Source: Nitrosarchaeum sp. (GTDB lineage Archaea; Thermoproteota; Nitrososphaeria; Nitrososphaerales; Nitrosopumilaceae). From it: a stretch of 64,000 nt of DNA. Positions 3,801 through 51,053 of the stretch are shown here, piece after piece. Location of the stretch: positions 1,600,001 through 1,664,000 of the forward strand of contig OZ245020.1 in NCBI GenBank assembly GCA_965223865.1, written 5' to 3'. Within the stretch, counting starts at the first letter, position 1; the number at the start of each line of letters is the position of its first letter. The position numbers and the translations under genes are program-made. The notes under the pieces are model-generated. The model was not told where the DNA came from. It ran no database searches and saw nothing but the letters and a program-made list of their open reading frames with translations.

Positions 3801-4013
3801 GGATATCATTATGATGAGGAAAAATCAATCAGTATAGAGATAGAGTCGGCAAGTGAATTGACAAGCCATCCAGAACATGTCCGACTCAACATGGAAAAGT
3901 GGAAGGACATGGGATTTGACATGTGTCATTGCTGGTCTGAAAGCAAGAAACTATTGGAGGTTTATGATTACCAGGTAACGGACAAGAAAAATGTCAAGGC
4001 ATTTCTAATTTAA
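837..4013 (+). CDS. VirD4/TraG-like type IV coupling ATPase with C-terminal wHTH and PD-(D/E)xK-like domain
   Basis: Walker A HGYIVGGTGSGKT, YLDPKGD, INPLE, Walker B LALDEFQ, SQARSYRLGLLLAHQ; C-terminal RPDLIG...ISIEIES. Confidence 0.85.
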   Translation: MGNYWSLSNIQKPSGHLDSVRDFLGITDKSKISCCQVIVPISIDVKLAIQSASNILGLPSKNPYHNTVRSFEIWWNGAKKQLKLVLVSHSPEDLESFKTSFSQMYPNTTYSDLKTISPEWYNISKEYKIFDVSTRHGHYSTLFDRSNAHSTITRVANTIQLANFAWIQFVFAPYNFTPYLKSHHNQLNRRIKFVTSKKFRSWIDEIKDIKPYENPENGMDFYNNYKTMQSDTSQKMQKSHVIMSIRGLLSSSENSNLESIPFDDIKSNYEHLTSYTYNYSKFCNKKPKRAGSPITISGEKKHFERQSLFELRLIPAAKKSLENAISGYFNASKLTGDYKIRKPLPFLVLNNDEMSLFVHLPDAVTTKNLQTSRNVSLPTKITSKKGFNLGYLQESKINFSQYGKIVKSTDQQCSVVSPADFSRHGYIVGGTGSGKTTLLRIIAKHLETSNLNGEFPNSFIYLDPKGDDSLKFIEQCGKQSIENHNVHFLDPIETDFSINPLELPRYSPEKRQETVSRYVGYFMDILKEWYKQQQSFVQMERIFRVLLFYMYQNNDAPTFLDMYDIIINIQEEQEKFLQIMFKALGMPDSEAMKQALTSIATLRPESFVPLLNRVEQFATDPILKKVFCVRHGTVKFEDLIKPNQYTIVRISSLHLAHHIQPLAIQAFVIKLWFTIQERASHTTENDRNYVILALDEFQIVSDLHVLPMILSQARSYRLGLLLAHQTTAQISDSLLEEITGNCGTQLAGRISGKDASKLANIWDPRFSKEIQQQLASQEDYHWTIKMRAEPGEEQPTPLQFWLHNPPPNLNENGHFLDNFISKQKKLYGNYDGDDDKKESSFDEDDNSSILQQKQIQRDRWMRHITVSLPAKEQWQIMVALHKNKKSPLLLTEITEQVRAETRDDVISILKKMIKNGIVEKDDSTRNVKYFLSKKAVKNYFTFDDTKIGTAKDISRITQKVIKNYLDKGVFITIASQNIEKDKYRPDLIGYHYDEEKSISIEIESASELTSHPEHVRLNMEKWKDMGFDMCHCWSESKKLLEVYDYQVTDKKNVKAFLI

Positions 4014-4333
4014 AACACTTCATCTAATGGATTGTAACTATTGGTATCATCTTGCTTTTCCTGCATAGGGGTTTTTGATTCTAATTGTTTTTCATCAGTT
4101 GTTTCTGGATTGATCTTTTGAATCTTTTCAATCTCATTTTTTGATAGCTTGTGGTTTATTTTTCGTACACCAAATGTTGCATCATTAACCAGTTCAACAT
4201 ACAGAAAACTGCCTGAATGGATATTCATCTTTTTGACGATTTCAGATGGAATGCTAAAACACAACGAACCGCTGCCCTCACCCCATACATTTCTGATGAA
4301 GCAATATGACGGTTTACTACTGCTGATTCTCAT
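4010..4333 (-). CDS. AbrB/MazE/SpoVT-like DNA-binding protein
   Basis: GSGSLCFSIPSEIVKKMNIHSGSFLYVEL motif; start moved to ATG 4333, 27 bp downstream of TTAAATACAAA at 4360 (minus strand). Confidence 0.7.
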   Translation of the reverse strand: MRISSSKPSYCFIRNVWGEGSGSLCFSIPSEIVKKMNIHSGSFLYVELVNDATFGVRKINHKLSKNEIEKIQKINPETTDEKQLESKTPMQEKQDDTNSYNPLDEVF

Positions 4334-4362
4334 AGCATGACATATTTCATTTGTATTTAACC

Positions 4363-4406
4363 TCCTGACTGTCAGGATAATCCGGACTGTCATGACCATC
4401 CTGACT
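4363..4406. repeat. 18-bp-period array of palindromic boxes TCCTGAC-T-GTCAGGA (operator or oriT candidate)
   Basis: 4363-4377 tcctgactgtcagga (perfect inverted repeat), 4381-4395 tccggactgtcatga, 4399-4406 tcctgact. Confidence 0.75.
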
Positions 4407-4780
4407 ATATTTTTGATGATTTGGTGTGAATTATGGGCTAATCAGGCACAAAAACACGACAAACTTCCCTAAACTGCACAAAATCTACAAAGTTCGCAAT
4501 TATACCTAATAGTTGATAATTTTATTATTTTTTTCTTTTTTTGAATTTTAGATTTTCTAAGGAAAATCATCCAAGGTTAAATCAAACTGAATAATACCAT
4601 TTCATGAATGAAATCCAGTATTTCAAACTATTAAAAGAAACAGTAAGAGAATCCAAAAAATTTGGAAGAATAATAATTGTTGTTAACAAGAATTCCCTAG
4701 ATGTAGAGAAACACTAGACAGAATTGAGTCTGAAATCAGAAAAGTAGCAACTCTAAATTAAAAGTATCAATCATTTTATT

Positions 4781-5299
4781 TTGTATTTGGCATACAATAA
4801 ACTAAATGTTGATTTTTCCCACAGACCATACTTTCTCAATCTTGTACTGATTCTTGTGATTGGCTACTTTTGTCTTTTGATGGTACCTATGATTTTGGGT
4901 CTTGTACCAGATTTTATTGTTAACCTTTCTCCATATGGAGTTCTTTTATCATTATACTTTGTACTGGGTATTCCAACCTATATTTACTCTAGAAAGATTT
5001 TCAGAGGAATCTCAGGGAGTACACGCTCTAAAATCTTAATAGTTTCATTTTTTATTCTATTTGGATTTCACTTGTTTCTGTTGAATTCACACCACATCTA
5101 TTCTTATTTTGAATCAGACAAAGAGGACAGATTTTCCAAAATCGCTGAGGAGATTAGACAAAGGATTCCAGATGAGACAAGATTTGAAGGACTGTCAGAT
5201 CCTGAAATATTTGAGATTCTATATACTGAACATATGTGTCTAGAAGAAGGAGAATTTTGTGAGCGATACCGTGATCTTCTCAGCATCTCAAAACCATAG
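4781..5299 (+). CDS. Hypothetical membrane protein (about 3 TM helices)
   Basis: 172-aa ORF with three hydrophobic segments and a charged C-terminal tail. Confidence 0.6.
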   Translation: MYLAYNKLNVDFSHRPYFLNLVLILVIGYFCLLMVPMILGLVPDFIVNLSPYGVLLSLYFVLGIPTYIYSRKIFRGISGSTRSKILIVSFFILFGFHLFLLNSHHIYSYFESDKEDRFSKIAEEIRQRIPDETRFEGLSDPEIFEILYTEHMCLEEGEFCERYRDLLSISKP

Positions 5300-5300
5300 C

Positions 5301-5561
5301 CTATCTAGTCCTAGAATTGTTTTTTCTCCATGTTAGGAGATATCTTATCATATAGACCAAAATTAGGCTCAACAGCACATAATACAGAATGGTCCCATAG
5401 GGAAACGGAAGCAATAGATGAAGTCCCATCTGTATTCCTGAAAGTACTGCCCATCCTACTATCGCAGTCAAGGTTACGATAATGATGATTTTGGTCTTGG
5501 AGTCAGCAGTTATGTTCATTTTAGTTTGAGGTTTTGTAATTGTGAATGTATTGTTTTCCAT
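5301..5561 (-). CDS. Small two-TM membrane protein
   Basis: Two hydrophobic helices (IIIIVTLTAIVGWAVL; TILYYVLLSLILVYMI) and a basic C-terminus. Confidence 0.6.
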   Translation of the reverse strand: MENNTFTITKPQTKMNITADSKTKIIIIVTLTAIVGWAVLSGIQMGLHLLLPFPYGTILYYVLLSLILVYMIRYLLTWRKNNSRTR

Positions 5562-9799: not shown

Positions 9800-11212
9800 G
9801 TGAAATACCTGACCGTGTTTGCAATAATAATGATTGGCCTGATGATGGCCATTCCAAATTCTTTTGCGTTGTTGCCACCTCATCCTAGTGCAGACTATAA
9901 CGAACAAGTCTCATGGCAGCAAGATCGCATGTGGCATCTTGGAAAGAATCTCTCAGCTGGGAATTCTTACACCTACAAGATCTGTGATCCCAAAACAATA
10001 CAGACTTCTGCTGCAAACTATCACTACTTTACCCAGGGAAACGAGAATCACAATTCCAGTGTTTGCTATATGATAAAGATGGACTTTGTCAATCTGCTAA
10101 CCTCTGATGAAAACCAGATTAATAGTGATGTCTGGGTGGTACAGGCAGCAATTAGTGATTTTGCAGCAAATAAAGACGTCAGATATTCCGTGTTTCATGT
10201 TGATTCACAAACTTTTGAAGTGAATTCAGCTGATACCATTCATCCAGACACCATAAAATATGCTGATTCGCTGCAAAAAACCCTGTTTTCACTTTTCAAG
10301 TATACTGCACCTGAGCCACAACTATTGCAGATTGAAACAGAATGGGGCGAGGTAACTGAAGCACTGCGTGAAAGAGGATACAACCCACACATGGTAGTGT
10401 TTGACGATAACCAGGAATATTCTGTGACTCAGAACAACATACGCATGATTGACAAACAAAACACTCCAGTTACAAGAAATATTTCAGATGCGTTCAAGGT
10501 AGGATATGAGATTGACATTTTTGATCCGCTCATCATATCTCAGGACAAGAAAACGAAAATTGTAGAGGAAGACAACAACAACGTGACAAGTTATTTTTTG
10601 ATATCATCTGACTTGCCATTTCCATTATCTGCTATATCTTACAGTCCAGTGCACATAGTGCAGCCCCAAAAACAATACGAGTTTGAATTAGTGGAATTTC
10701 TTGCAAACAACAAAAATGTGGACATTGGAATAAAACCTGTTTTTGAGAAACCAGAAGAAATTGTTATTCCTGAAATACCAATTGAGACTGGCACAATTGC
10801 ATTAACTTTTCCAGAAGACAGTGTTCCAGATGATACAGGTATTGTTGTTGACGATGTAGTTGTTGACGATGTAGTTGTTGACGATGTAGTTCCTGATGGT
10901 GATGTAGTTACAGATGACATTGTTACAGATAACGATAGTGTTGCTGTTGACGATGTAGTTCCTGATGGTGATGGCATTGCTGATCCTACTCCATCTGAGG
11001 ATATTGACCATTCCAAGATTGCAGGACTAGTGGTGTTACTGGTTGTAATGATTGCAGTTTTTGTAGTCTTTAAGAAATTCAAGGAATCTGGATTCAAGAC
11101 CGGACTCAAAAATACAATAAAGAAAAAACGACAACAGCATACAACAAAACAGATTGTTCAGTTTGATGACAAACTGCACATTGACATCAAGACCATTACT
11201 GATGTCAACTAG
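9800..11212 (+). CDS. Secreted membrane-anchored protein with acidic VVDD repeat stalk
   Basis: Signal peptide, VVDDV repeats, TM helix IAGLVVLLVVMIAVFVVF, basic cytoplasmic tail. Confidence 0.7.
   Translation: MKYLTVFAIIMIGLMMAIPNSFALLPPHPSADYNEQVSWQQDRMWHLGKNLSAGNSYTYKICDPKTIQTSAANYHYFTQGNENHNSSVCYMIKMDFVNLLTSDENQINSDVWVVQAAISDFAANKDVRYSVFHVDSQTFEVNSADTIHPDTIKYADSLQKTLFSLFKYTAPEPQLLQIETEWGEVTEALRERGYNPHMVVFDDNQEYSVTQNNIRMIDKQNTPVTRNISDAFKVGYEIDIFDPLIISQDKKTKIVEEDNNNVTSYFLISSDLPFPLSAISYSPVHIVQPQKQYEFELVEFLANNKNVDIGIKPVFEKPEEIVIPEIPIETGTIALTFPEDSVPDDTGIVVDDVVVDDVVVDDVVPDGDVVTDDIVTDNDSVAVDDVVPDGDGIADPTPSEDIDHSKIAGLVVLLVVMIAVFVVFKKFKESGFKTGLKNTIKKKRQQHTTKQIVQFDDKLHIDIKTITDVN
10844..10888 (+). 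repeat. Coding tandem repeat, 3 x 15 bp (gttgttgacgatgta)
   Basis: Direct reading; the extended unit gttgacgatgtagttcctgatggtgat recurs near 10946. Confidence 0.85.
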
Positions 11213-15200: not shown

Positions 15201-18200
15201 TTGATTGTGAAGGTTTTAGAACTTTTAGAAGAGGAACTTCCAAAGTATATTGAAGAAGTAAAACTAAAACATTCTGAAAATGCCAAAGCAGTTGCATTTT
15301 CATCTTTCATTCAGAAAGTTTTTGATATTGAGTCTAAAGATCTAGATTTTGAAGTTCCAATTAAAACTGAAGTATTAGAAATGAGAGGTAGAATTGATGC
15401 AGTATTTGGAAATTTAATAATTGAATTTAAGAAAGATTTGTTAAAAAGCCTGGAAGAAGCAAAAGATGAATTAGAAAAATATTTTCAAGCGTTTAAAGAA
15501 AGATATTCAGATGCAAATTATCTTGGAATAGCTAACGATGGTATTAGATTTCAAGTATACCAACCGATTTTTGAAGATAAAAAAATTAAAGAAATTGAGA
15601 AAATTGATGAAATAAATTTAGAAAACAGTTCACCTAGAGATGTTTTTTTATGGTTCGATTCTTATTTTTTTACTTCTGAAAAAATAATTCCTACTTCAGA
15701 TGATCTAAAAAAAAGATTCGGATTAGATAGTCCTACATTTTCAGCAATGAGAAGACAGTTAGAAGAATTATTTAACAAAGTTTTCGAATACAGACCTGTT
15801 AAAGTAAAGTATGATAGTTGGGCTCGTTATTTAGAAATTGTTTATGGAGACAAACCAAATGAGAAAAAACTTTTTTTCAAACATACTTATCTCTCAACAT
15901 TTGTGAAATTACTTGTTCATATTAAATTAACAAAAAATTCTCAAAGGCAAAATCACTCAATTGTGCCTATTCTTTTTGGAGATACATTTACTCAATATGG
16001 AATTAATAATTTTCTCGAGGAAGATTTTTTTACTTGGATAATGTTTGTGACTATTCGTAAACAAGCAAGTAAGATTTTTGAAAAATTACTTGACGAGCTT
16101 TATGTTTATGATTTAGACAAGATTGATGAGGATGTTTTAAAAGAACTTTATCAAGAGTTGGTTGATCCCGATGTAAGAAAGCTTTTGGGTGAATTTTACA
16201 CGCCTGATTGGCTTGCGGAGAAAATGATCGATGAATCTCTGCAAAAAAATCCTTTGTCAAGTGTAATGGATCCTTCATGTGGTTCAGGGACTTTTTTGTT
16301 TAAAACCATTAGATACAAAATAGATAGACTAAAAAAAGATAGATTATCCAATTCTGAAATTCTTAATCACATAGTTGAAAATGTGATTGGTTTTGACGTA
16401 CATCCATTAGCAGCTATTATTTCAAAAACTAATTATCTTCTAGCACTTCGTGATTTGTTATCTTCAAAAACAGGCTCCATAAGCATACCTGTTTTCTTAA
16501 GCGATTCTCTCAAGGTTCCAACTAAAAAAATGGATGTTGCACTGGGCGTTACATTATTCGAATATACTGCTTTAGATAAAAAATTTGTATTTCCAGTAGA
16601 TATTGCAAAAAATATGCAAAAAATGGATCAGGTGATTGATAGCTTACGAACTCATGGAATAGAATTTGAAAAAATCTATGATAGAAAATATGAATCTAGT
16701 TATGTAGACAATACTGTAATAGATGGAGCTTATGAAAATCTTGTCCAAAGTTTTAAGCGATCATTAGTGAAGGTTGTTAGTAAATCAGAATTAATAATTT
16801 TGGAACAAAATGTAAAAACTTTATTCGATCTTATAAAAGAAGAATCAAATTCAATTTGGACTTATGTTCTTCGAAATATGTACAAACCTATTGCAGTGTC
16901 TTATCGAAAGGTTGATCTCTTAATTGGAAATCCTCCATGGTTAGGATTAAACAATATGAAAAATGAGGAATATCAAGACTACCTAAGAGAACGTAGTAAA
17001 CATTATCTACTTACAGAAAAGAGAAAAAGTCAAAATATTTCTAACTTGAATCTTGCTACATTATTTTTTGTTCAATGTGTAGATCAATATTTGGATAATA
17101 AAGGAAAAATATCTTTTGTGATGCCTCAAGGAATTCTTTTTGCATCACAACATGCTAATTTTTTGAAATTTGAAAAAATTCCTATAAAATTAACTCAAAT
17201 TTATGATTTAGAAAAAGTTACTCCTCTTTTTAGAATATTATCATGCGTAATTTTTGGTACAAAAGGTTCAACAACGGAATATCCAATAACATCTTATGAT
17301 GTGAGCGGCAATTTACCGTCAAACAATTCCAATTTAGAAACAGCAAAGTCAGTATTAACATTCAAAAAACTAGAATATTCTCCTGTAGAAAGAAAGGAAG
17401 AAAAATCATTTTATTATGATAGATTTTCTCAAGGCGCCCAAATTATTCCTAGATGTTTCTGGTTTGTAGATCTCTTAAGTGATAGTTTTCTTGGTTTTAA
17501 CCCCGAAAAACCTCTTGTTGAATCATCTGAAAATAAAGATGCTAAGCATCCTTGGGATAAAATTAGGCTCAAAGGTAATGTGGAAAAACAATTTCTTTCT
17601 ACGTCAATTTTAAGTAAAGACGTTGTTCCATTTGGAAATCTACCTCGAAGAGTAATTGTTGTACCATTACTTATGGATGAACACAATGTCAAATTACTTG
17701 ATAATTCGCAACAAATTGAAATTAGTGGATTATCAATTTCAAAATATTTAGAAGATGCAGAAAAAAAATGGGAGAAAAATGCACCCGTAAAATCCAGAAA
17801 AAATATGACCATTTATGATAGAATTGATTATCAAAAAGATCTTTCTTCACAAAATCCTTTTCAGGGATACACGGTACTTTATGTGAAATCAGCAACTTAT
17901 CTTGCTAGTTGTGTTATAGAAAATAATGAAATCAGTTTAATCCCAGTTGGTGAAAATAGTTTAAAGATTAAAGGTTTTTTTGCTGAAGGAACAACATATT
18001 TCTTTACAACTGATTCTAAAGAGGAGGCATACTATCTTTGTTCTATTTTTAATTCAAAAACCCTAGACGAAAAAATTAAACCATTTCAAAGTAGAGGTAT
18101 GTTTGGCGGAGCAAGAGATATTCATAAGTTGCCTCTTTCATTTAATATCCTTAAATACGATTCTTCAAATAAAATCCACAAATTGCTGTCTGACGAAGGA

Positions 18201-18341
18201 ATAAAATGTGCAAAAACTGTTAAACAAAATCTTTCTGGTTTATCAACAAAATCATCTGGTCAATTAAGAAAAAAAATTCGAACAATGCTTGAAAAAGAAT
18301 TAGACATAATAAATGAAAAATCGAAACAGCTATTAAAATAA
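15201..18341 (+). CDS. Type IIG/IIL-like restriction-modification fusion (REase + N6-adenine MTase + TRD)
   Basis: N-terminal RIDAVFGNLIIEFK (PD-(D/E)xK), GEFYTP, DPSCGSGTF (motif I), IGNPPW (motif IV), long C-terminal TRD. Confidence 0.9.
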   Translation: MIVKVLELLEEELPKYIEEVKLKHSENAKAVAFSSFIQKVFDIESKDLDFEVPIKTEVLEMRGRIDAVFGNLIIEFKKDLLKSLEEAKDELEKYFQAFKERYSDANYLGIANDGIRFQVYQPIFEDKKIKEIEKIDEINLENSSPRDVFLWFDSYFFTSEKIIPTSDDLKKRFGLDSPTFSAMRRQLEELFNKVFEYRPVKVKYDSWARYLEIVYGDKPNEKKLFFKHTYLSTFVKLLVHIKLTKNSQRQNHSIVPILFGDTFTQYGINNFLEEDFFTWIMFVTIRKQASKIFEKLLDELYVYDLDKIDEDVLKELYQELVDPDVRKLLGEFYTPDWLAEKMIDESLQKNPLSSVMDPSCGSGTFLFKTIRYKIDRLKKDRLSNSEILNHIVENVIGFDVHPLAAIISKTNYLLALRDLLSSKTGSISIPVFLSDSLKVPTKKMDVALGVTLFEYTALDKKFVFPVDIAKNMQKMDQVIDSLRTHGIEFEKIYDRKYESSYVDNTVIDGAYENLVQSFKRSLVKVVSKSELIILEQNVKTLFDLIKEESNSIWTYVLRNMYKPIAVSYRKVDLLIGNPPWLGLNNMKNEEYQDYLRERSKHYLLTEKRKSQNISNLNLATLFFVQCVDQYLDNKGKISFVMPQGILFASQHANFLKFEKIPIKLTQIYDLEKVTPLFRILSCVIFGTKGSTTEYPITSYDVSGNLPSNNSNLETAKSVLTFKKLEYSPVERKEEKSFYYDRFSQGAQIIPRCFWFVDLLSDSFLGFNPEKPLVESSENKDAKHPWDKIRLKGNVEKQFLSTSILSKDVVPFGNLPRRVIVVPLLMDEHNVKLLDNSQQIEISGLSISKYLEDAEKKWEKNAPVKSRKNMTIYDRIDYQKDLSSQNPFQGYTVLYVKSATYLASCVIENNEISLIPVGENSLKIKGFFAEGTTYFFTTDSKEEAYYLCSIFNSKTLDEKIKPFQSRGMFGGARDIHKLPLSFNILKYDSSNKIHKLLSDEGIKCAKTVKQNLSGLSTKSSGQLRKKIRTMLEKELDIINEKSKQLLK

Positions 18342-18353
18342 GTTTCAAAATTT

Positions 18354-19757
18354 TTAAAGACTGAACTTAGTTCCTTCAGTAATCATAGTTACATTTTGTT
18401 CAATAGTTTTGTAAACCTCTGGATGTTCAGTGTGAATTGGAAAAATGAGTTTTCCACCAATCTCTGAAACTGCTTTGAGAAGATCACTTCCTCTAGCATG
18501 ACCTGAGCAATGACTCTGAAATTTATGCATACCAAAGTGATCAATCCATGCATTAAGTCGTTCCTGAGATAATTCTTGTTCCTCATTATATGGTTCAGAT
18601 GAAGAGTGGATATATCTTGCACCCGGTTTTAGTTTCATGTCAATTAGAGCAGTAAAACTGTAAAATCCTATGGCACAAAGCACCTTATCTGGTCTCTGAG
18701 CAATTTGTTCAGCTGTCCATGTATTATGCAAATCTAAAAATTCTTTATCTTTACCTTTGTAATCTCTATCGGAGTATGTTCCAGATCCTCTTTTTGGAAG
18801 ATAAATGATAATGTCTTCATCGTCAATATTTGGAACATCAAGATGCTTATCTTGTGAGAGATATTTTAAAAAATAAGCATCATTGATTTTTACAACAAAC
18901 TTTCTTCCTGTCTGTTTTGCAATATTAAAAAATGTACGAAGTCTATCAACATCTTTGAAATTAAAATCTGCAAAAACTAGATTATTAGTTTCATTCACGG
19001 TTTGACTAGATTCTTGGTAAACTTTTTGTTCAGATTCGTCTGTTTCTTTGTCTGTTATTCTAGTTCCTTCAGTGATTAATGCAATTGGTTTTATTTCTTT
19101 TGCACGATTGATAAAATCACATGTCATCTCAGAGTGTGTTCCATGTAGTCTAATATCTCCAGTATATGCAATTGGACCTTCTGATGTCCAAATAATGAAA
19201 CCATAGGCTCCAGGTACTGAGTGATCTACATGAATTGGTTCTACTTCTAATGAACCAACCTTGAATTTATCACCAGTTCTAAATTCATTAATTGTTCTTC
19301 TGATGGGAGAATCTTTTAGACTGTAAGGTCTTGGTTTGTAGTCAAGAATTTCTTTTTCAATAGTTCTTGATGCACGTTCTGATAATGCTTTGAGAATCAA
19401 ATGACATGCTGAGCCCATATGGATTGGTATGTCTTCATGCAGAAATGAAATGTAATCAGCATGGTCTGCATGAGCATGAGTTAGAAGAACTGCATCAATA
19501 TCTGGTTCTTGAGGTTTTCTACCCGCCATCACCATCAAATCATCTCGATAAACCCCTGGGATATCAGGTACTAGCCCCATGGTCAGAAAATCTACGATTC
19601 CATTGGAGGTTCTAGGATTGAGATATTCCTCAAAATAGGTTGCACGTCTTGAGAAACTCTTGCCAAAATCTAAGAAAACTTTGGTATCTTTATCTTCCAG
19701 CAGTATTTTATTTCCTCCAATTTCATTAACACCACCATAGAAGGTCAGAGAAGTCAC
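18354..19757 (-). CDS. MBL-fold beta-CASP (RNase J-like) nuclease
   Basis: GGVNEIGGN, LDFG, THAHADH, VDHS, YTGD, HCSGHA, PIHTEH. Confidence 0.85.
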   Translation of the reverse strand: MTSLTFYGGVNEIGGNKILLEDKDTKVFLDFGKSFSRRATYFEEYLNPRTSNGIVDFLTMGLVPDIPGVYRDDLMVMAGRKPQEPDIDAVLLTHAHADHADYISFLHEDIPIHMGSACHLILKALSERASRTIEKEILDYKPRPYSLKDSPIRRTINEFRTGDKFKVGSLEVEPIHVDHSVPGAYGFIIWTSEGPIAYTGDIRLHGTHSEMTCDFINRAKEIKPIALITEGTRITDKETDESEQKVYQESSQTVNETNNLVFADFNFKDVDRLRTFFNIAKQTGRKFVVKINDAYFLKYLSQDKHLDVPNIDDEDIIIYLPKRGSGTYSDRDYKGKDKEFLDLHNTWTAEQIAQRPDKVLCAIGFYSFTALIDMKLKPGARYIHSSSEPYNEEQELSQERLNAWIDHFGMHKFQSHCSGHARGSDLLKAVSEIGGKLIFPIHTEHPEVYKTIEQNVTMITEGTKFSL

Positions 19758-19867
19758 ACATCAAAGTCATATTATCATACATAAAAATACGATCAGATGA
19801 TTACAAACCACAAGTAAAGCTCAAACTGTTCCTGATCTTTTAAACAGAGAGTAGTGTAAACCTATCA

Positions 19868-20944
19868 TTGACTGAAAAAAAAGACAAGATCTCAATTTCC
19901 AGAAGACAACGAAATGCAGCATACAAAGCATGGGAAACAATGAAAAGACGGAAATGGGAATCAAGAGGAGAATTTTCTGAGAAGATAAAAGATTACATGA
20001 CATTACAACAGATTTCCAGAGTCAATCATCCAGAGTTAGAAGAGAAGATTCCTGAAAAAATAGCAAAGGGGATTGTAAGTCTTTTTCATAAAACACCAAA
20101 AGATATTGCTTGTGGTAAATTTTGGGAGTTACGTTGGGCTTATGGTTGCCCTTTGGATTGTAACTATTGTTATCTTCGTGGTACAATGAGAGGAAATATG
20201 AAACCAAGTCCATTAAAATCGGAACACGTTCTAAAAGCCATTGATGAGGCATTTGCAAAAATTAAAACACCATCTATTTTCAATACAGGTGAGCTTTCAG
20301 ATTCTCTGATGTTTCCATCGTTGATGGAGAAGATTGTAGATAAATTTGAAGAACAATCAACGCACAAAGTTGCATTACTTAGTAAAATGGGAACTCATCA
20401 TATTGATTTCCTTATGAAAAAATTACGAAAACAAACAATATGTTCATGGAGTATAAACGCAATTCCAGTGGCAAAGAGATGGGAAAAGGCCGCTACTGAT
20501 CCATACGATAGAATAGCTGCTGCATCGATGGTTGATTCGATGGGATATGACACACGAATACGAATTGATCCAATTTTTCCAATCTTCGAATGGAAAAAAC
20601 ACTACGAAGAAATTATAGATTATTTATTCTCAAAGTTGGAGCCTAGAAGGATAATTTTAGGCACACCTAGAGGATTATGGAAGACAATAAAGTATGCAAA
20701 GAATGCCAAAATAGACATGTCATGGGCAAATTTCTTCAATGAAGATTCTAGCTGGGGTAAAAAATTAGAATTTAACCAAAGAATGGAAATCTACCAATTT
20801 TTGATGGATAAATTAACATCAATCGGCTATTCACAATCCAAAATTAGCATGTGTAAGGAAACTACAGAAATGTGGTCTAAAATTGGACTCGATTACAAAC
20901 CATTAACCTGCAGTTGCTATGGAAAAAATGCGTTATCTATTTAG
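19868..20944 (+). CDS. Spore photoproduct lyase-like radical SAM protein
   Basis: GCPLDCNYCYL (CxxxCxxC), FNTGELSDSL, WSIN, RIDPI, MCKE as in the SplB family. Confidence 0.8.
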   Translation: MTEKKDKISISRRQRNAAYKAWETMKRRKWESRGEFSEKIKDYMTLQQISRVNHPELEEKIPEKIAKGIVSLFHKTPKDIACGKFWELRWAYGCPLDCNYCYLRGTMRGNMKPSPLKSEHVLKAIDEAFAKIKTPSIFNTGELSDSLMFPSLMEKIVDKFEEQSTHKVALLSKMGTHHIDFLMKKLRKQTICSWSINAIPVAKRWEKAATDPYDRIAAASMVDSMGYDTRIRIDPIFPIFEWKKHYEEIIDYLFSKLEPRRIILGTPRGLWKTIKYAKNAKIDMSWANFFNEDSSWGKKLEFNQRMEIYQFLMDKLTSIGYSQSKISMCKETTEMWSKIGLDYKPLTCSCYGKNALSI

Positions 20945-22055
20945 CAAATTCAATCATACACTTTTCTGGATAATCTAATCGTTTAGTAGATCGATCAGTT
21001 ACGTTAATAATTTTGGGTGGAATGGCTTTTTCCAATGGTCGTAAAACTTTGGTTTTAGTAAAAAGAAAAGGAGTTTCGGTAATCACATACTCATGAATTT
21101 CTTCTAAAAGAACCGTTTTTCCTTTAAAATGTTCAAAAATCATTTTTCCAACCTCTGAAATCCAGTATTCTTCATCATTATAATCTAACAAAAACGTTTG
21201 ATTAGGATTTGTTCTGTCTGAAAATTTGTAATAACCGCCTTGGCCAACTTTCTGCATGGCTCTTTTGATTACCTCTAAACCTCTCCAATGTTTTGTTCCA
21301 TAAACCAGATGGTAAATTGTATTGTTATCCGAACCAATCATTTCAAATGTTCTAACAAATTTTGCACCACCAACATTTTTTAGTTGTTGTACGTACAATT
21401 CTAAAAGAAACTTACGTTTTTCATCGGGTGTTTCATAATCATCTACGTCTTTCCAAGAAGAAGATGCATACAATCCATTCAATGCATTTTCTCGTAGCTC
21501 GTCATGAAATCTAAGTACGAAGCCAGACATGAAAGTAACAAGCACTTCACATTTGTTGTAGTTTAACATTCTTTGTATAAGGTTCATTGGCAAACCAGAA
21601 AATCCAAATGGATCTAAAAAAGCAAAAGTTGGAGCTAACTTTGCACCATCATTTTCTAATTGGTCTAAAGTTTCTTCAAGGGATTGTGCAAATTCAGATT
21701 TTTGAACATGGTAGAGTATTTGATCATCTTCTTTGTTTTCAAGTTCTGGGAATTTAGATTTTAACACTTCTTGTAATTTATTACATCTGTCCTTATCTTT
21801 TTCAATAAACCAAAAAACAATTTTTTTGAAATGTTTTCTCATAGAATGTTCTACAGCGGTACGTATAGCGATTACAGGAGAACCTTCTTCACCTTTTGAA
21901 TAAACCCCAGGGCCAGCAAATCCATCAAGATATACTATTCGCCCATCAAATCTTGAAAGTATAGGAAACCAAGGTTTGAGATATTCACGAAGAATTTCAT
22001 GTTTAGCGTTGGTATGGGGATCAAGAGGCCAAACTGTCGAATTAATTCCGGACAA
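20937..22055 (-). CDS. tcmP: Three-Cys-motif partner protein TcmP (SAM-dependent methyltransferase fold)
   Basis: HTNAKHEILREYL, YLDGFAGPG, FAFLDPFG, YHLVYGT; adjacent to the DUF5131 gene. Confidence 0.85.
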   Translation of the reverse strand: MSGINSTVWPLDPHTNAKHEILREYLKPWFPILSRFDGRIVYLDGFAGPGVYSKGEEGSPVIAIRTAVEHSMRKHFKKIVFWFIEKDKDRCNKLQEVLKSKFPELENKEDDQILYHVQKSEFAQSLEETLDQLENDGAKLAPTFAFLDPFGFSGLPMNLIQRMLNYNKCEVLVTFMSGFVLRFHDELRENALNGLYASSSWKDVDDYETPDEKRKFLLELYVQQLKNVGGAKFVRTFEMIGSDNNTIYHLVYGTKHWRGLEVIKRAMQKVGQGGYYKFSDRTNPNQTFLLDYNDEEYWISEVGKMIFEHFKGKTVLLEEIHEYVITETPFLFTKTKVLRPLEKAIPPKIINVTDRSTKRLDYPEKCMIEFAK

Positions 22056-22198
22056 CTATATTTGATTTTATTTTAAATTCTTAATTTTTTCTATTGTTTT
22101 TCCTTTAATATTATCATAATCTAGTGAAAATAATGACTATGGAATTCATAATGGACTCGATTTATCCTTTAAATAGACTACTTTTATGGTGAGAATAA

Positions 22199-23038
22199 TT
22201 GGCTGATAATTCTGCAATAGAATGGACTGAAGCCACATGGAATCCAACTACTGGATGTACTAAAGTCTCTTCAGGATGTAAGAATTGCTATGCTGAAGCA
22301 CTGTCGAAAAGGCTCAAAGCCATGGGAATTAAAAAATACAAAAACAACTTCAAATTCACTCAACACAATAATGAAGTAGAGTTACCGCTTCGTTGGAAGA
22401 AACCTAAGAAAATTTTCGTAAATAGTATGTCTGATCTATTCCATGAAGAAGCAGAAATGGAATTTATTGCAAAATGTTTTGATACTATGACTAAAGCCCA
22501 TTGGCATGTCTACCAAGTATTGACTAAGCGACCATCAAAGATGGCAGAATTTTCAAAATTATTTTATAATTATTTTGGATTTCAAATACCAAATAATATT
22601 TGGATGGGCACAAGTATAGAAGACAACCAAACAACGTGGAGAATAAAAGAACTACGTAAAGTAAAATGTTATACTAAATTCATTAGTTTTGAACCATTAT
22701 TAGAAGACATAAACAAAGTAAACTTGTCAGGTATTGACTGGGCAATCATTGGAGGAGAAAGTGGCCATCATTACAGACCAGTAGAAAAAAAGTGGATTCA
22801 AAACCTAATCAAGCAGTGCCAAAAACAAAATGTCAAAGTATTTTTCAAACAATGGGGAGGATTTCGACCTAAAGCGGGGGGTAGAGTAATCAATGGAAGA
22901 ACATATAGTGAATATCCAAAATTAAAACCAGTTGTTAATAAACAACAAGCAATGAAAATGGATGCCATAAGAAAAGAAAAAATAAAATTCAAGAAAATCA
23001 AGTTCAAAAAAACACTTCCTCCAATTTTGAATTTATAA
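22199..23038 (+). CDS. DUF5131 / phage Gp37-Gp68 family protein (three-Cys, radical-SAM-like)
   Basis: SAIEWTEATWNPTTGCTKVSSGCKNCYAE, FVNSMSDLFH, LTKRP, SFEPLL, WAIIGGESG, FFKQWGG. Confidence 0.92.
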   Translation: MADNSAIEWTEATWNPTTGCTKVSSGCKNCYAEALSKRLKAMGIKKYKNNFKFTQHNNEVELPLRWKKPKKIFVNSMSDLFHEEAEMEFIAKCFDTMTKAHWHVYQVLTKRPSKMAEFSKLFYNYFGFQIPNNIWMGTSIEDNQTTWRIKELRKVKCYTKFISFEPLLEDINKVNLSGIDWAIIGGESGHHYRPVEKKWIQNLIKQCQKQNVKVFFKQWGGFRPKAGGRVINGRTYSEYPKLKPVVNKQQAMKMDAIRKEKIKFKKIKFKKTLPPILNL

Positions 23039-23056
23039 TTCAAAAAAATAATAGAT

Positions 23057-23941
23057 TTGTTAACTCTTAAAGAACAACTTGATTGTATTAGAGAGAACAT
23101 ATCAAATCCTATATGGTCACAGAAAGGCTTTGATTATTACGAATTACTTACAAAATTGCATTTATTATTAGTGAAAAATAATCTTCGAAAATCATACTAT
23201 GATGAAACTACGTTGGTTAGCTGTAAATATTTTGAAAATTGTTCTGATGACCAAATTGACGATATTATAATTGAACATGTTCCAGATTTCAAACCTAGAA
23301 TTAATGCATTAAATCAACTAAAAAAAATTAGTGAGAAAATGGGATTGCAAACATACCTGATTAGACAAATACCAATCGAAATCAGAACAAAATGTTATGT
23401 TCCAGAAAATATTATAAAGAAATTTGCAACTAGTTTTAGTTGTGGTAAACAGATTTTAATTTTTAATGATAAAAAAATAGAATCAGAAATTAGGCAATTA
23501 TTGACTGGCAAGAAGAGACTAGGAGACATACTAGAATATCCAAGATGTTGTGTTAATTGGATGGTTGAAACAAAAACCAAATCATTAGAAGATTGCTATA
23601 AATTTTATGAAGAAAATTTTGGTACAGAAGATCATGATAAAATGAAGGAATTTTTACTTAAAAATTTTGAAAGTGATAACATTTCAGGGAATAAAGAAAG
23701 AATGATTGAAATTCAAGATAATCATGTGATGAGAACAATTTCAACATATCCATTTGTTTTTCATCAAGCATGTAATTCATGTTTAAAAAATTCATATTCT
23801 TCTACTTCAAAATTAAATAAAAAATACAGTAATTTTGCTAAAAAAATTTCAAAAGAATTCCATGATAAAATTTTAGATGAGGCAAAAAGAATTTGGACAT
23901 TTAAACAAACTTCGTTCAATAAAAGAAATCCATTCTGTTAG
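23057..23941 (+). CDS. Hypothetical Cys-motif protein (LEYPRCC...HQACNSC; DUF483-like)
   Basis: 294-aa ORF 18 bp downstream of the DUF5131 gene; GxxLxYPxCC motif. Confidence 0.55.
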   Translation: MLTLKEQLDCIRENISNPIWSQKGFDYYELLTKLHLLLVKNNLRKSYYDETTLVSCKYFENCSDDQIDDIIIEHVPDFKPRINALNQLKKISEKMGLQTYLIRQIPIEIRTKCYVPENIIKKFATSFSCGKQILIFNDKKIESEIRQLLTGKKRLGDILEYPRCCVNWMVETKTKSLEDCYKFYEENFGTEDHDKMKEFLLKNFESDNISGNKERMIEIQDNHVMRTISTYPFVFHQACNSCLKNSYSSTSKLNKKYSNFAKKISKEFHDKILDEAKRIWTFKQTSFNKRNPFC

Positions 23942-27159: not shown

Positions 27160-28488
27160 TTAGTTATCAGTCCTTTGCTTGAGCAATTCCTCAAATATCA
27201 AATCAATCTTGTCTCCAAGTTTTTCCACATTCTCCAGTCTATGTACAATAGAATCCATAGTGTGCTGTTGGGATACGGTAGTCTTTTCTAACAGTTTTGC
27301 ATCAAGAATATAACCGCATTTTGCACACCTCTGTCTTTCAGGGGTGTTATCGTGCTCACAACGTGGGCATTTTTTTAGCTGGGCAATGGCATTAGAGTTG
27401 TCTTTTTGCTTTATTCCGTGAAGCTCCAAAATTGCGTTTTCTGCATCCTTGCCAGAAAGATGCACGTATCTTGCAGTCATCTTTGATCCTGGTTTCCAAT
27501 TGCCGTACACACGCAGCGTCTGATCAGAGAGTTTTTTTGCCAAGTGTGTAAGTTGAGAGTGCCTCATCAGATAGTTCCAGACTCGTTTTTTTATTCCCGC
27601 TTTTTCCTTGCATCTTTTGAGATGCTCTCGTAGATAACCATAAGATACACGCTTTGTTTTTGAGGACTTCCATAAGGAATACCATAACGGTGCATTAGGG
27701 TCATCTTTTAGTGGGTGCTCATCAAGCCACTCCAAGAGAGGCTTGAATGACACTACCAGTGCAACACTTTTGCTTCCAGTCTTGCCAAATGTACTGACCA
27801 TGACATGGTCATCCCTAAAGTCAATGCCACCAACTCGCAAATGCAACAGCTCTCCTGGACGAAATGCCCCTTCAAACAATACCCAAAACATGGCCCTGTC
27901 TCGCTTGTTTGTAGTCTGGTTGATTATTGCATTTAGTTCATCAAGGGTAAGCAGATCTTTTGGCTGTATTCCTTGTTTGTTTTTGTCCTGATATCTTGAA
28001 GGAGAGATCCACTCAACCTCGTTTACGTATCCTCTCTTCTTGTCCCCAATGTCTCCAGTCTTTGCAAAGTGGACCAATCTCTGTAAGGTCAATGCATATG
28101 CAGACTTTGTCTCACCGGAATAGTTTTTTTGAGATATTAGATTAGAGAGTATGGACTCGCATTGGATTTTTTTGGCGTTTTTTAGCTTGAGGTGCAGTTT
28201 TTCAAATTCTGCAAGTATCAATGGGAGTCGATCGCCGTAATAGCAGAGGCGTGCATCAGATAATCCTACTAGTTTTAGTTTGTCAAGGAATTGGATACAT
28301 TTTTGTCCTTCATGCATCTTGGCAAAACGATTTTTTGCCCATCTTATCTTTCTTGGATAGTTGTAGATATCACCAGAATCATCATAACCCAGAGTCTTCT
28401 TGTCATTGCCAGCATCGCTTTTTACCACATGAACAGATGTCTGGTTTTCATTTAAGGCAGGATTTTTGTCAGAAGGGAGCAACAACAT
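27160..28488 (-). CDS. Tyrosine recombinase/integrase with C-terminal Zn ribbon
   Basis: RDRA...EGAFRPGEL, GKTG, YLMRHS, GNW...MTARYVHL; CPRC...CAKC. Confidence 0.93.
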   Translation of the reverse strand: MLLLPSDKNPALNENQTSVHVVKSDAGNDKKTLGYDDSGDIYNYPRKIRWAKNRFAKMHEGQKCIQFLDKLKLVGLSDARLCYYGDRLPLILAEFEKLHLKLKNAKKIQCESILSNLISQKNYSGETKSAYALTLQRLVHFAKTGDIGDKKRGYVNEVEWISPSRYQDKNKQGIQPKDLLTLDELNAIINQTTNKRDRAMFWVLFEGAFRPGELLHLRVGGIDFRDDHVMVSTFGKTGSKSVALVVSFKPLLEWLDEHPLKDDPNAPLWYSLWKSSKTKRVSYGYLREHLKRCKEKAGIKKRVWNYLMRHSQLTHLAKKLSDQTLRVYGNWKPGSKMTARYVHLSGKDAENAILELHGIKQKDNSNAIAQLKKCPRCEHDNTPERQRCAKCGYILDAKLLEKTTVSQQHTMDSIVHRLENVEKLGDKIDLIFEELLKQRTDN

Positions 28489-28497
28489 AATAGTATA

Positions 28498-28579
28498 CGC
28501 CAGGTAAGGGATTCGAACCCCTGCACGCTTACGCGTAGCCGTTTTCGAGACGGCCGCCTTACCACTTGGCTAACCTGGC
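28498..28579 (-). tRNA. tRNA-Ser (anticodon CGA); ICE attachment site
   Basis: Reverse complement GCCAGGTTAGCCAAGTGGTAAGGCGGCCGTCTCGAAAACGGCTACGCGTAAGCGTGCAGGGGTTCGAATCCCTTACCTGGCG: acceptor stem, GCCGT/ACGGC anticodon stem, long variable arm, TTCGAA loop. Confidence 0.96.
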
Positions 28580-28638
28580 ATTTAATCTGAGATTATCTCC
28601 ATAATAAAGCAAATCAGAACTCGAGAAAATACCAAAAA

Positions 28639-50998: not shown

Positions 50999-51053
50999 GT
51001 ATTTCTATATTTAGATCGATTTTATTGACTTGACCATACTTTGAATTTTATTA

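What the first reader, a model, noticed from the sequence alone, without database searches (positions are those of the whole stretch)
15201..23941. Candidate undescribed DNA-modification/defence island: type IIG RM + beta-CASP nuclease + two radical-SAM-type proteins + TcmP methyltransferase + Cys-motif protein
Seen: six tightly packed genes inserted between virB4 and virB6. Gaps are 12 bp (RM/nuclease), 8 bp overlap (SPL-like/TcmP) and 18 bp (DUF5131/Cys protein), with two divergent promoter regions. None has the ICE backbone promoter, and much of the block looks more AT-rich than the transfer genes. Known: TcmP is defined by co-occurrence with three-Cys proteins such as DUF5131/Gp37-Gp68, and to my knowledge the pair has no established biochemistry; SplB-type radical SAM enzymes act on DNA bases. 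Inference: TcmP plus two Fe-S/SAM enzymes install or remove a base modification, and the beta-CASP nuclease and/or RM fusion act as the discriminating effector, giving a mobile anti-virus module in an ammonia-oxidising archaeon.
Basis: partly seen in the sequence, partly recalled or inferred. Interest (0 to 1): 0.85.

Follow-up and report, generated by a model that had tools for sequence, protein, structure and literature searches.

The report
TcmP cassette with two radical-SAM enzymes
Four of the six flagged genes form a recurring mobile cassette of untested function (a methyltransferase-shaped protein, two iron-sulfur "radical" enzymes and a new cysteine-rich protein), while the restriction enzyme and the nuclease beside it are independent passengers.

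Summary
The six genes are real and lie where stated. They are not one system. The SPL-like radical-SAM gene, TcmP, DUF5131 and the Cys-rich gene F (19868-23941) recur in the same order in two other genomes of the window's family. Two further genomes carry the first three genes. None of these four loci has the restriction enzyme or the beta-CASP nuclease nearby. The nuclease occurs in 109 of 390 family genomes, never beside the cassette in the 11 closest loci.

In a sample of 400 other genomes of the phylum, TcmP pairs with DUF5131 (8 genomes, plus 2 with fusions), with an SPL-like enzyme (6) or with another radical-SAM enzyme (4). Only this window has both partners. TcmP is exchanged between otherwise conserved cassettes. 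Its model resembles the N6-adenine methyltransferase RlmJ.

The TcmP-DUF5131 pair is already PADLOC's untested candidate PDC-M30/M41, and this scan has noted it in at least 120 genomes, once with two radical-SAM partners. New here are the SPL-like plus DUF5131 combination and F, a four-Cys protein with only nine close relatives. My best reading is a TcmP-guided radical-SAM module acting on DNA, probably in defence. The chemistry is untested.

The parts
19868..20944 (+). C: SPL-family radical-SAM enzyme (358 aa). Part of the cassette.
   Evidence: Pfam SPL PF20903 at 47.1 bits (cut-off 27). The alignment to solved SPL keeps the cluster motif C94-x3-C98-x2-C101 with Y100 and Y102, but places Glu142 where SPL has its catalytic Cys. 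C is 81, 71 and 71% identical to the genes in L003, L010 and L018.
20937..22055 (-). D: TcmP (372 aa). It has an RlmJ-like SAM-dependent methyltransferase fold and a C-terminal winged-helix region. It is the exchangeable hub of the cassette.
   Evidence: TIGR04474 at 209.6 bits (cut-off 53). PADLOC PDC-M30A at 7.6e-59. GMT-wHTH at 20.5 bits, below its cut-off, over residues 277-330. The model has pLDDT 89. E. coli RlmJ chains give Z 16.1-16.6, rmsd 3.1-3.6 and 208-212 residues aligned. D44-G45-F46-A47-G48, E85, D148-P149 and G151 are invariant in 50 sequences.
22199..23038 (+). E: DUF5131 three-Cys radical-SAM-type protein (279 aa). Part of the cassette.
   Evidence: PF07505 at 301.5 bits. PADLOC PDC-M41B at 1.9e-105 and PDC-M30B at 1.9e-103. 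C20, C27 and C30 (Cx6Cx2C), and also C93, C157 and C207, are invariant in 12 of 12 aligned sequences.
23057..23941 (+). F: Cys-rich protein of no assigned family (294 aa). It lies 18 bp downstream of E and was found only with C+D+E.
   Evidence: Only 9 proteins were found by the word-indexed search. C164, C165, C180, C239, C242, H223 and H236 are invariant among them. In a wider set of 121 relatives, Y161, P162, C164, C165, P232, C239 and C242 are kept in 97-100%. DUF483 scores 18.4 bits, below its cut-off of 25.
22056..22198 (.). Divergent D/E spacer with a TATA-like box, TTTAAATA, at 22168-22175, about 27 nt before the E start.
   Evidence: Read from the sequence. That this is an archaeal promoter is an inference from general knowledge, not a test.
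19758..19867 (.). Divergent B/C spacer with a TATA-like box, TTTTAAAC, at 19838-19845, about 26 nt before the C start.
   Evidence: Read from the sequence. DNA similarity to L003 begins at 19823, inside this spacer.
15201..18341 (+). A: stand-alone type IIG restriction-modification enzyme. It is a neighbour, not part of the cassette.
   Evidence: PADLOC REase_MTase_IIG PDLC03630 at 1.4e-83. N6_Mtase at 53.8 bits and Eco57I at 43.4 bits. D66-x8-E75-x-K77 and NPPW can be read in the translation. No homologue was found in the other cassette loci.
18354..19757 (-). B: RNase-J-like metallo-beta-lactamase / beta-CASP nuclease. It is a neighbour, not part of the cassette.
   Evidence: Lactamase_B_2 at 46 bits and RMMBL at 20.5 bits (cut-off 21.6). 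TIGR00649 at 66 bits (cut-off 400). The HAHADH motif is present in the translation. Homologues occur in 109 of 390 family genomes. The 11 closest loci lack cassette genes.

Best explanation
The 8.7-kb block holds three unrelated cargo units on an integrated conjugative element of about 70 kb. The first is a self-sufficient type IIG restriction-modification enzyme (A). The second is a solitary RNase-J-like nuclease that is common in this archaeal family (B). The third is a four-gene TcmP cassette (C, D, E, F).

In the cassette, TcmP is the hub. It has a SAM-binding, RlmJ-like methyltransferase fold and a winged-helix tail. It is the part that is exchanged between otherwise conserved cassettes, as a specificity subunit would be. 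I infer that TcmP binds a nucleic-acid site, most likely in DNA, and brings one or two radical-SAM enzymes of the SPL/DUF5131 branch to it. Those enzymes then carry out radical chemistry on a base. F, a four-cysteine metal-binding protein, would serve these enzymes as a redox or iron-sulfur partner. The biological role is most likely conflict between host and mobile DNA, that is, defence or exclusion.

Shown: gene content, recurrence, modular exchange, the fusion of TcmP with DUF5131, the fold of TcmP, and the independence of A and B. Inferred: DNA as the target, TcmP as guide, the role of F, and defence as the function.
For: Recurrence of the cassette. C, D, E and F keep the same order and strands in L003 and L010. 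Identities to the window are C 81/71%, E 83/81% and F 59/45%. L018 has C, a TcmP-like gene and E, then the contig ends. L019 has a decayed C (12 stops), a TcmP-like gene and E. In the family sample, C was found in 5 of 400 other genomes. Alignment A1 of F matched 3 of 400, one of which is only a 25%-identical paralogue in an unrelated place.

TcmP takes alternative partners. The phylum sample gave 24 TcmP-bearing genomes among 400 others. Of these, 8 have a separate DUF5131 neighbour and 2 have DUF5131-TcmP fusions of 655 and 644 aa. Six have an SPL-like neighbour and 4 have another Radical_SAM neighbour. Four are uninformative because of short contigs or fragments. None has both partner types.

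Exchange of TcmP. DNA similarity between the window and L003 runs over 19823-20929 and 22194-23880 and stops exactly around D. The L003 gene at that place is a 318-aa TcmP-like protein only 26% identical to D. In a tree of 20 TcmP proteins, two well-supported clades (100/100 and 100/99) each mix partner types.

Folds and families. TcmP resembles RlmJ. C aligns with solved SPL and keeps its cluster motif. SPL and DUF5131 are neighbouring subgroups of radical-SAM Megacluster-5 (PMC9477430, passage read).

Conflict context. PADLOC lists the pair as PDC-M30/M41. In 6 of 11 SPL-like loci from the phylum sample, another PADLOC family lies within 4.5 kb: Cas4, HmaC/HEC-05, a type I REase, AbiEi, a type II MTase or a mad2-like gene. 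There is no baseline control for this count. In Gordonia phage Fairfaxidum, DUF5131 and a TcmP homologue (hhalign 98.6%, E 1.1e-15) lie between the integrase and the immunity repressor.

Independence of A and B.
Against: No experiment exists. The open literature held here gives no biochemistry for TcmP or DUF5131. PADLOC's PDC systems are predictions (10.1101/2024.01.29.577857, abstract and section 10 read).

The cassette has no recognisable nuclease or other effector. TcmP's motif IV reads DPFG rather than the DPPY of amino-methyltransferases (the DPPY motif is recalled), so it may bind SAM without transferring a methyl group. Its nearest structural relative, RlmJ, acts on RNA, not DNA.

C lacks SPL's catalytic cysteine, so its chemistry is not that of SPL.

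The cassette count is small: 5 loci in closely related genomes, which are not independent. F is linked in 3 loci only. It is missing from the decayed G100 locus and cannot be tested in G222, where the contig ends.

Earlier notes of this scan report wiring of the pair to the bacterial SOS response, which favours a repair role (not tested here).
Confidence: 0.5

Rival explanations
1. DNA-damage repair or tolerance module. The SPL-like and DUF5131 enzymes would reverse or process a DNA lesion by radical chemistry, as SPL does. TcmP would recognise the lesion, and F would supply electrons.
For: C belongs to the SPL family and keeps the cluster motif and both flanking tyrosines. SPL and DUF5131 are neighbouring radical-SAM subgroups. 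Earlier notes of this scan report LexA/SOS operators in front of the pair in several bacteria (not tested here). The cassette has no nuclease.
Against: The cassette is rare and patchy: C occurs in 5 of 400 and 13 of 400 sampled genomes. It sits on a conjugative element, next to transposases or in defence-gene neighbourhoods. TcmP is swapped between conserved cassettes, which is not expected of a lesion-recognition protein. C has Glu at the place of SPL's catalytic Cys.
Confidence: 0.2
2. Self-protection of mobile DNA. The cassette would hypermodify the element's own DNA (ICE, prophage or plasmid), so that it escapes the restriction systems of recipients or of co-resident elements. It would be an anti-restriction rather than a defence device.
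For: The cassette lies among transfer genes of a conjugative element, here and in L010. DUF5131 relatives occur in 170 phage records. A SAM-binding methyltransferase fold together with two radical enzymes would suit multi-step base modification.
Against: In the one phage locus inspected, the pair lies in the lysogeny region between the integrase and the immunity repressor. That position suits a gene expressed from the prophage for the host's benefit. In L003 the cassette persists near a tRNA-Ser, with no conjugation genes in the 20 kb held. No C or F homologue was found in the phage collection.
Confidence: 0.15
3. RNA rather than DNA is the target. TcmP, like its structural relative RlmJ, would bind an rRNA or tRNA, and the radical enzymes would modify it. 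The effect could be altered translation during infection or protection against a ribotoxin.
For: The best structural matches of TcmP are rRNA and tRNA methyltransferases: RlmJ at Z 16.6, Trm1 at Z 14.2.
Against: SPL, the nearest solved relative of C, acts on DNA. TcmP carries a winged-helix tail, though its Pfam score is below the cut-off. The genomic company is DNA-directed systems. None of this excludes RNA.
Confidence: 0.08
4. All six genes would form one system in which TcmP and two Fe-S enzymes mark DNA, and the beta-CASP nuclease and/or the RM fusion discriminate and cut.
For: The six genes are tightly packed, with 12-bp and 110-bp spacers joining A, B and C.
Against: A and B are not found at any of the 4 other cassette loci. 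G327 and G390 carry B-like genes (38-39% identity) more than 100 kb from their cassettes. B is present in 109 of 390 family genomes without the cassette, which is present in 5 of 400. A has every part of a self-sufficient type IIG enzyme. G+C differs between the units: A 0.29 against B-E 0.33-0.35.
Confidence: 0.04

Closest known systems
TcmP / DUF5131 gene pair (NCBIfam TIGR04474 with Pfam PF07505, 'phage Gp37/Gp68'); PADLOC candidates PDC-M30 and PDC-M41
   Same: D and E match both components far above their thresholds and are adjacent. As other notes of this scan report, DUF5131 stays conserved while TcmP is exchanged.
   Different: A second radical-SAM enzyme of the SPL family is attached to the other side of TcmP. 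A fourth gene, F, follows DUF5131. Neither C nor F matches any PADLOC model. The known pair is itself uncharacterised.
TcmP + SPL-like radical-SAM pairs, and 'TcmP with two radical-SAM partners'
   Same: I found SPL-like genes directly beside TcmP, without DUF5131, in 6 genomes of the phylum sample. I also found a two-enzyme variant (an SPL-like gene plus a 329-aa Radical_SAM gene) in L035 and L036.
   Different: Here the second enzyme is DUF5131, not another SPL-like protein. F is new: the scan's index has no stretch resembling it.
Spore photoproduct lyase SplB (PDB 4FHC, 4RH0)
   Same: C shares the radical-SAM core, the CxxxCxxC motif with a tyrosine before and after the last Cys, and a Pfam SPL match.
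   Different: C scores only 54 bits against the SPL equivalog (cut-off 400). It has Glu142 at the place of the catalytic Cys, an extra basic N-terminal stretch of about 85 residues, and a TcmP partner.
RlmJ, 23S rRNA A2030 N6-methyltransferase (PDB 4BLU, 6QE0, 7P8Q)
   Same: It is the best structural match of the TcmP model over residues 1-283: Z 16.1-16.6, rmsd 3.1-3.6 A, 208-212 residues aligned. The Foldseek E-value is 8.4e-7.
   Different: Identity is only 14-15%, and no sequence-family match was found. Motif IV reads DPFG. TcmP has an extra C-terminal winged-helix region and obligate radical-SAM neighbours.
Type IIG (Eco57I / MmeI-like) single-chain restriction-modification enzymes
   Same: Gene A has an N-terminal PD-ExK-like motif, an N6-adenine methyltransferase core with NPPW, and a long C-terminal region in one chain.
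   Different: Nothing unusual was seen. A is an ordinary member and is unrelated to the cassette.

Membership tests
TcmP (NCBIfam TIGR04474) | Whole-protein score above the curated cut-off of 53 bits | tested here: met
   209.6 bits, E 7.6e-62, profile positions 1-262 of 263.
TcmP (NCBIfam TIGR04474) | Sits beside a three-Cys-motif (radical-SAM-type) partner gene. This definition is inferred from the family's name and from recall. | tested here: met
   E lies 143 bp away on the opposite strand, and C overlaps D's 3' end by 8 bp.
PADLOC PDC-M30 / PDC-M41 | Component A and component B are both present and adjacent | tested here: met
   D matches PDC-M30A at 7.6e-59 and PDC-M41A at 2.8e-17. E matches PDC-M41B at 1.9e-105 and PDC-M30B at 1.9e-103.
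PADLOC PDC-M30 / PDC-M41 | Anti-phage activity | not testable with these tools
   The PDC set is described as 145 predicted candidates (10.1101/2024.01.29.577857, section 10). M30 and M41 are not named in the main text, and the supplements are closed.
DUF5131 (Pfam PF07505) | Score above the gathering cut-off, and three conserved N-terminal cysteines | tested here: met
   301.5 bits against a cut-off of 28.9. C20, C27 and C30 are invariant in 12 of 12 sequences.
Radical SAM mobile pair protein A (TIGR04471) | Score above the cut-off of 355 bits | tested here: not met
   E scores 90.2 bits. It is a relative, not a member.
Spore photoproduct lyase (TIGR04070 equivalog) | Score above the cut-off of 400 bits | tested here: not met
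   C scores 54.4 bits.
Spore photoproduct lyase | CxxxCxxC cluster motif | tested here: met
   C94, C98 and C101 align with the three cluster cysteines of chain 4rh0_A.
Spore photoproduct lyase | Catalytic hydrogen-donor cysteine, Cys140 of the Geobacillus enzyme (number recalled) | tested here: not met
   Glu142 of C aligns with that position. I placed the position by counting along the chain with an offset of 27, which puts the cluster cysteines at 90, 94 and 97 as I recall them. The chain shown has Ala there, and I recall it as a mutant.
SPL family in the wide sense (Pfam PF20903) | Score above the gathering cut-off of 27 bits | tested here: met
   47.1 bits.
RlmJ-type N6-adenine methyltransferase | Sequence-family match and a DPPY motif IV (motif recalled) | tested here: not met
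   No RlmJ family appears among the Pfam hits at E <= 0.01. The motif reads D148-P149-F150-G151. The fold is similar, so TcmP may work like RlmJ without being a member.
Type IIG restriction-modification enzyme | Nuclease motif, N6-adenine methyltransferase core and target-recognition region in one chain | tested here: met
   PDLC03630 at 1.4e-83. N6_Mtase at 53.8 bits and Eco57I at 43.4 bits. D66-x8-E75-x-K77 and NPPW are read. Cleavage was not tested.
MmeI family (Pfam MmeI_Mtase PF20473) | Score above the cut-off of 27 bits | tested here: not met
   24.9 bits.
RNase J (TIGR00649) | Score above the cut-off of 400 bits | tested here: not met
   B scores 66 bits.
Metallo-beta-lactamase / beta-CASP nucleases | MBL domain with an HxHxDH motif, plus the C-terminal RMMBL domain | tested here: inconclusive
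   Lactamase_B_2 scores 46 bits (cut-off 27) and HAHADH is present. RMMBL scores 20.5 bits, just under its cut-off of 21.6.
DUF483 (Pfam PF04467) | Score above the cut-off of 25 bits | tested here: not met
   F scores 18.4 bits over residues 152-179. Of 30 wider relatives scanned, 12 hit DUF483, all below the cut-off at 19.8-24.3 bits.

The most novel reading that the evidence does not exclude
The cassette would be a restriction-like immune system built on radical chemistry instead of a nuclease. A swappable TcmP subunit would read a DNA site and SAM. Two different radical-SAM enzymes of the SPL/DUF5131 branch would mark self DNA or damage foreign DNA at that site. F would be a dedicated four-cysteine redox partner that lets these oxygen-sensitive enzymes work in an aerobic ammonia oxidiser. 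This would be a new effector chemistry for prokaryotic immunity, with a modular logic resembling the specificity subunits of type I systems.
Probability: 0.2. Interest if true: 0.85.

Novelty: new variant of a known kind. Interest (0 to 1): 0.5.

Why it matters
TcmP with a three-Cys radical-SAM partner is one of the most widespread gene pairs of mobile DNA that still has no known chemistry. The pair occurs in bacteria, archaea and phages, and this scan alone has noted it in at least 120 genomes.

This locus gives three handles for experiments:
- It shows that one TcmP can be flanked by two different radical-SAM partners. These partners are alternatives elsewhere, so the enzymes are modules around a common hub.
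- It shows a clean natural swap of TcmP between nearly identical cassettes, which points to TcmP as the specificity element.
- It adds a fourth, previously unnoticed protein (F) with a four-Cys signature, which may be the missing helper needed to reconstitute activity.

The restriction enzyme and the nuclease should be left out of any construct meant to test the system.

Tried and rejected
Complex prediction. Whether F binds E, D or C is therefore untested.

Fold of F. The model has pLDDT 83.6 and pTM 0.83. Foldseek against the PDB gave no match at E <= 0.001. VIA-align against 48,161 chains gave a best Z of 5.0 with no coherent family. A sequence profile against the PDB gave nothing at E <= 5. 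This does not show that the fold is new.

ESM Atlas look-up of F: the tool returned an error and I did not repeat it.

PDB sequence searches of D and E gave only chance-level rows.

Public collections. Scans of viral contigs for C and F found none. The phage collection gave no match for F or C. The GTDB contig scan found only one F locus. The metagenome scan found only two distant F-like fragments.

Attachment site. No direct repeat of the tRNA was found inside window 1-30000. The repeat was found outside the window instead.

Sequencing runs. Three runs of other labels hold short contigs identical to parts of the region, probably the same or a near-identical strain, and add nothing. One metatranscriptome (X16) has two exact 151-nt records inside gene C (19889-20192). 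The tool warns that this does not show transcription. Runs with small shares were not interpreted.

Literature. Searches for DUF5131, TcmP, PDC-M30/M41, Gp37Gp68, PF07505, COG4422, PF22560, and 'radical SAM' with 'spore photoproduct lyase' and 'anti-phage' gave annotation-table mentions only and no biochemistry. Subscription papers and bioRxiv supplements were not searched. The PDC tables of Payne et al. may hold details on M30 and M41.

An indirect hint that I did not rely on: read by eye, 14 'longest contig' lengths other than the window's own are shared between the top-120 lists of C and D relatives. This suggests, but does not prove, that those proteins lie on the same contigs.

Full report
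THE OBSERVATION

The six ORFs are present with the stated ends and spacings, and their family assignments hold.
- A (15201-18341, +) is a type IIG restriction-modification enzyme. It matches PADLOC PDLC03630 at 1.4e-83, and Pfam N6_Mtase and Eco57I above their cut-offs. In its translation I read D66-x8-E75-x-K77 and NPPW.
- B (18354-19757, -) is a metallo-beta-lactamase protein with an HAHADH motif, a near-threshold RMMBL domain and a weak RNase J match of 66 bits against a cut-off of 400.
- C (19868-20944, +) matches Pfam SPL at 47.1 bits.
- D (20937-22055, -) is TcmP, at 209.6 bits on TIGR04474.
- E (22199-23038, +) is DUF5131, at 301.5 bits.
- F (23057-23941, +) matches nothing above a cut-off.

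G+C is lower than in the flanking transfer genes. A has 0.29 and F 0.26, and B to E have 0.33-0.35. The flanking VirB4-like gene, the 618-aa gene and the integrase have 0.40-0.43, and the genome average is 0.34.

The upstream gene is VirB4-like. The downstream 618-aa protein has about seven hydrophobic segments but no family match, so the 'VirB6' label remains plausible and unproven.

SETTING

An integrase gene (27160-28488, -) abuts tRNA-Ser(CGA) (28497-28580, -). A 68-nt stretch spanning the integrase start and the tRNA's 3' end (window 28441-28508) recurs at 90% identity 70.6 kb upstream in the genome. A VirD4-like coupling protein lies at 837-4013. Together these fit an integrated conjugative element of about 70 kb, of the kind described for this phylum (PMC6563490, passages read).

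IS IT ONE SYSTEM?

I searched for relatives of F, the rarest gene. The word-indexed search found nine proteins. One GTDB locus (L003) and a family-level genome search (3 of 400 other genomes) gave two further real loci. I count L003 and the G327 hit once, because their contig length and coordinates coincide. The second locus is L010, from G390.

Both loci carry C, a TcmP-type gene, E and F in the window's order and orientation. C itself occurs in 5 of 400 other family genomes.
- G222 has C, a TcmP-like gene and E, and then its contig ends.
- G100 has a C riddled with 12 stops, a TcmP-like gene and E, but no F.
- G359 has C at a contig end and is uninformative.

None of the four informative loci has a relative of A or B in the DNA held around it.

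B relatives occur in 109 of 390 other family genomes. Four of these genomes (G259, G227, G077, G257) are unpublished. Without them the count is 105 of 386. In the 11 closest B loci, no A, C, D, E or F relative lies within 1.5 kb. Two of those loci, L092 and L097, come from unpublished genomes, and the result is the same for the other 9.

So A and B are separate cargo, and C-D-E-F is the recurring unit.

HOW THE UNIT IS BUILT

I drew a sample of 400 other genomes of the phylum. C relatives were present in 13. Of the 11 neighbourhoods fetched:
- 6 have a TcmP or TcmP-like gene directly beside the C relative;
- 4 do not;
- 1 is too short to tell;
- none has DUF5131.

In the same sample, TcmP was present in 24 genomes. 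Their partners were as follows:
- a separate DUF5131 gene in 8;
- DUF5131 fused to TcmP in one reading frame of 655 or 644 aa in 2;
- an SPL-like gene in 6;
- another Radical_SAM gene with only sub-threshold SPL similarity in 4;
- nothing decidable in 4.

Only the window has both an SPL-like gene and DUF5131. F was not found in any of the 8 family loci that have DUF5131 without C.

Two loci of another family (L035, L036) have a different two-enzyme form, with an extra 329-aa Radical_SAM gene divergent from the SPL-like gene.

RadicalSAM.org places SPL and DUF5131 in neighbouring subgroups of one megacluster (PMC9477430, passage read). The partners of TcmP are therefore variations on one enzyme type.

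TcmP IS THE EXCHANGEABLE PART

Between the window and L003, C, E and F are 81, 83 and 59% identical. The gene at D's place in L003 is a 318-aa TcmP-like protein that is only 26% identical to D. DNA similarity runs over 19823-20929 and 22194-23880 and breaks exactly around D and the D/E spacer.

In a maximum-likelihood tree of 20 TcmP proteins, two strongly supported clades each contain proteins partnered with SPL-like only, with DUF5131 only, and with both. The window's D is closest (52% identity) to a TcmP that has DUF5131 alone.

WHAT THE PROTEINS LOOK LIKE

TcmP. The model (pLDDT 89) is a class I methyltransferase fold. Its best matches are E. coli RlmJ chains (Z 16.1-16.6, rmsd 3.1-3.6 A, 208-212 residues aligned), ahead of CmoA and Trm1 at about Z 14. 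The glycine-rich SAM loop (D44-G45-F46-A47-G48), E85 and a DPFG motif are invariant or nearly so in 50 relatives. The C-terminal 90 residues give a sub-threshold winged-helix match.

C. It keeps SPL's CxxxCxxC motif and both flanking tyrosines but has Glu142 at the place of SPL's catalytic cysteine (numbering recalled). It is therefore an SPL-family enzyme, not an SPL.

E. It has an invariant Cx6Cx2C motif.

F. It has four cysteines, arranged YPxCC ... CxxC, that are kept in 99-100% of 121 wider relatives. Its DUF483 matches are only sub-threshold.

None of C to F has a hydrophobic segment.

FUNCTION

There is no experiment. PADLOC lists TcmP+DUF5131 as PDC-M30 and PDC-M41. These come from a set of 145 candidates predicted by embedding in known defence systems (10.1101/2024.01.29.577857, abstract and section 10 read).

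The context here agrees with a role in conflict:
- The cassette sits on conjugative elements (window and L010).
- It sits next to transposases and HNH genes near the same tRNA-Ser and FEN1 hotspot in L003.
- In 6 of 11 phylum loci, another PADLOC family lies within 4.5 kb (no baseline control).
- In a temperate Gordonia phage, the DUF5131-TcmP pair lies between the integrase and the immunity repressor.

I therefore favour, at about even odds, a TcmP-guided radical-SAM module that acts on DNA in host-versus-mobile-DNA conflict, with F as a metal or redox helper.

The rivals are a repair role, self-protection of the mobile element's own DNA, and an RNA target. The repair role draws on SOS wiring reported by earlier notes of this scan, which I did not test. 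None of the three is excluded.

NOVELTY

The pair is known but uncharacterised. This scan has already noted it in at least 120 genomes, including SPL-like partners and one case with two radical-SAM partners.

New here:
- the SPL-like plus DUF5131 combination around one TcmP;
- its recurrence as a four-gene cassette;
- the clean natural swap of TcmP;
- protein F, which the scan's index had not seen.

This is a new variant of a known kind.

Noticed in passing
window 27160-28580, and genome C1:1557930-1557997 (outside the window): The integrase abuts tRNA-Ser(CGA). A 68-nt direct repeat (90% identity) of window 28441-28508 lies 70.6 kb upstream. The conjugative element is therefore about 70 kb long and starts some 42 kb before the window.
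   Followed up: partly
L003 3894-10879: In the other Nitrosopumilus genome, the cassette lies 1.6 kb from the same tRNA-Ser(CGA), next to the same FEN1 and acetyl-CoA-synthetase genes that flank the window's element. No conjugation genes are present in the 20 kb held, and IS110, IS481-like and IS1595 transposases are nearby. This may be a remnant at the same hotspot.
   Followed up: partly
L080 4538-6502 and L081 7882-9813: Single reading frames of 655 and 644 aa join an N-terminal DUF5131 domain to a C-terminal TcmP domain. This natural fusion argues that the two proteins work in contact.
   Followed up: partly
L035 6414-9528 and L036 8527-11647: Another archaeal family has a different three-gene form: a 329-aa Radical_SAM gene divergent from an SPL-like gene, which is followed by a TcmP-like gene. 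In L036, HmaC, HEC-05 and a mad8/HerA-like gene lie beside it.
   Followed up: partly
L101 (Gordonia phage Fairfaxidum NC_048185.1) 3492-5433: DUF5131 (gp42) is convergent with gp43. The record annotates gp43 as 'methyltransferase', and it is a TcmP homologue (hhalign 98.6%). The pair sits between the integrase and the immunity repressor.
   Followed up: partly
window 10809-10984, inside ORF 9800-11212: Tandem 15- and 18-nt repeats encode an acidic Val/Asp-rich stretch. The 470-aa protein has hydrophobic segments at both ends and is probably a surface protein of the conjugative element.
   Followed up: no
L010 11137-15564: In the related element of G390, the cassette is followed by a VirB11/T2SSE-type ATPase, a SIR2_2-domain gene and a homologue of the window's 618-aa membrane protein.
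   Followed up: no
L003 14835-17324: Two HNH-domain genes lie 4-6 kb from the cassette. One is PtuB-like and the other matches PADLOC HNH PDLC04132 at 6.7e-24.
   Followed up: no
alignment A3, C-terminal 40 residues of E: In the three cassettes that carry F, DUF5131 ends in a lysine-rich tail that differs from the tail shared by most DUF5131 genes lacking C and F. This may be the contact site for F.
   Followed up: no
window 49001-51000: G+C rises to 0.45-0.46 against a genome average of 0.34. I did not examine this region.
   Followed up: no
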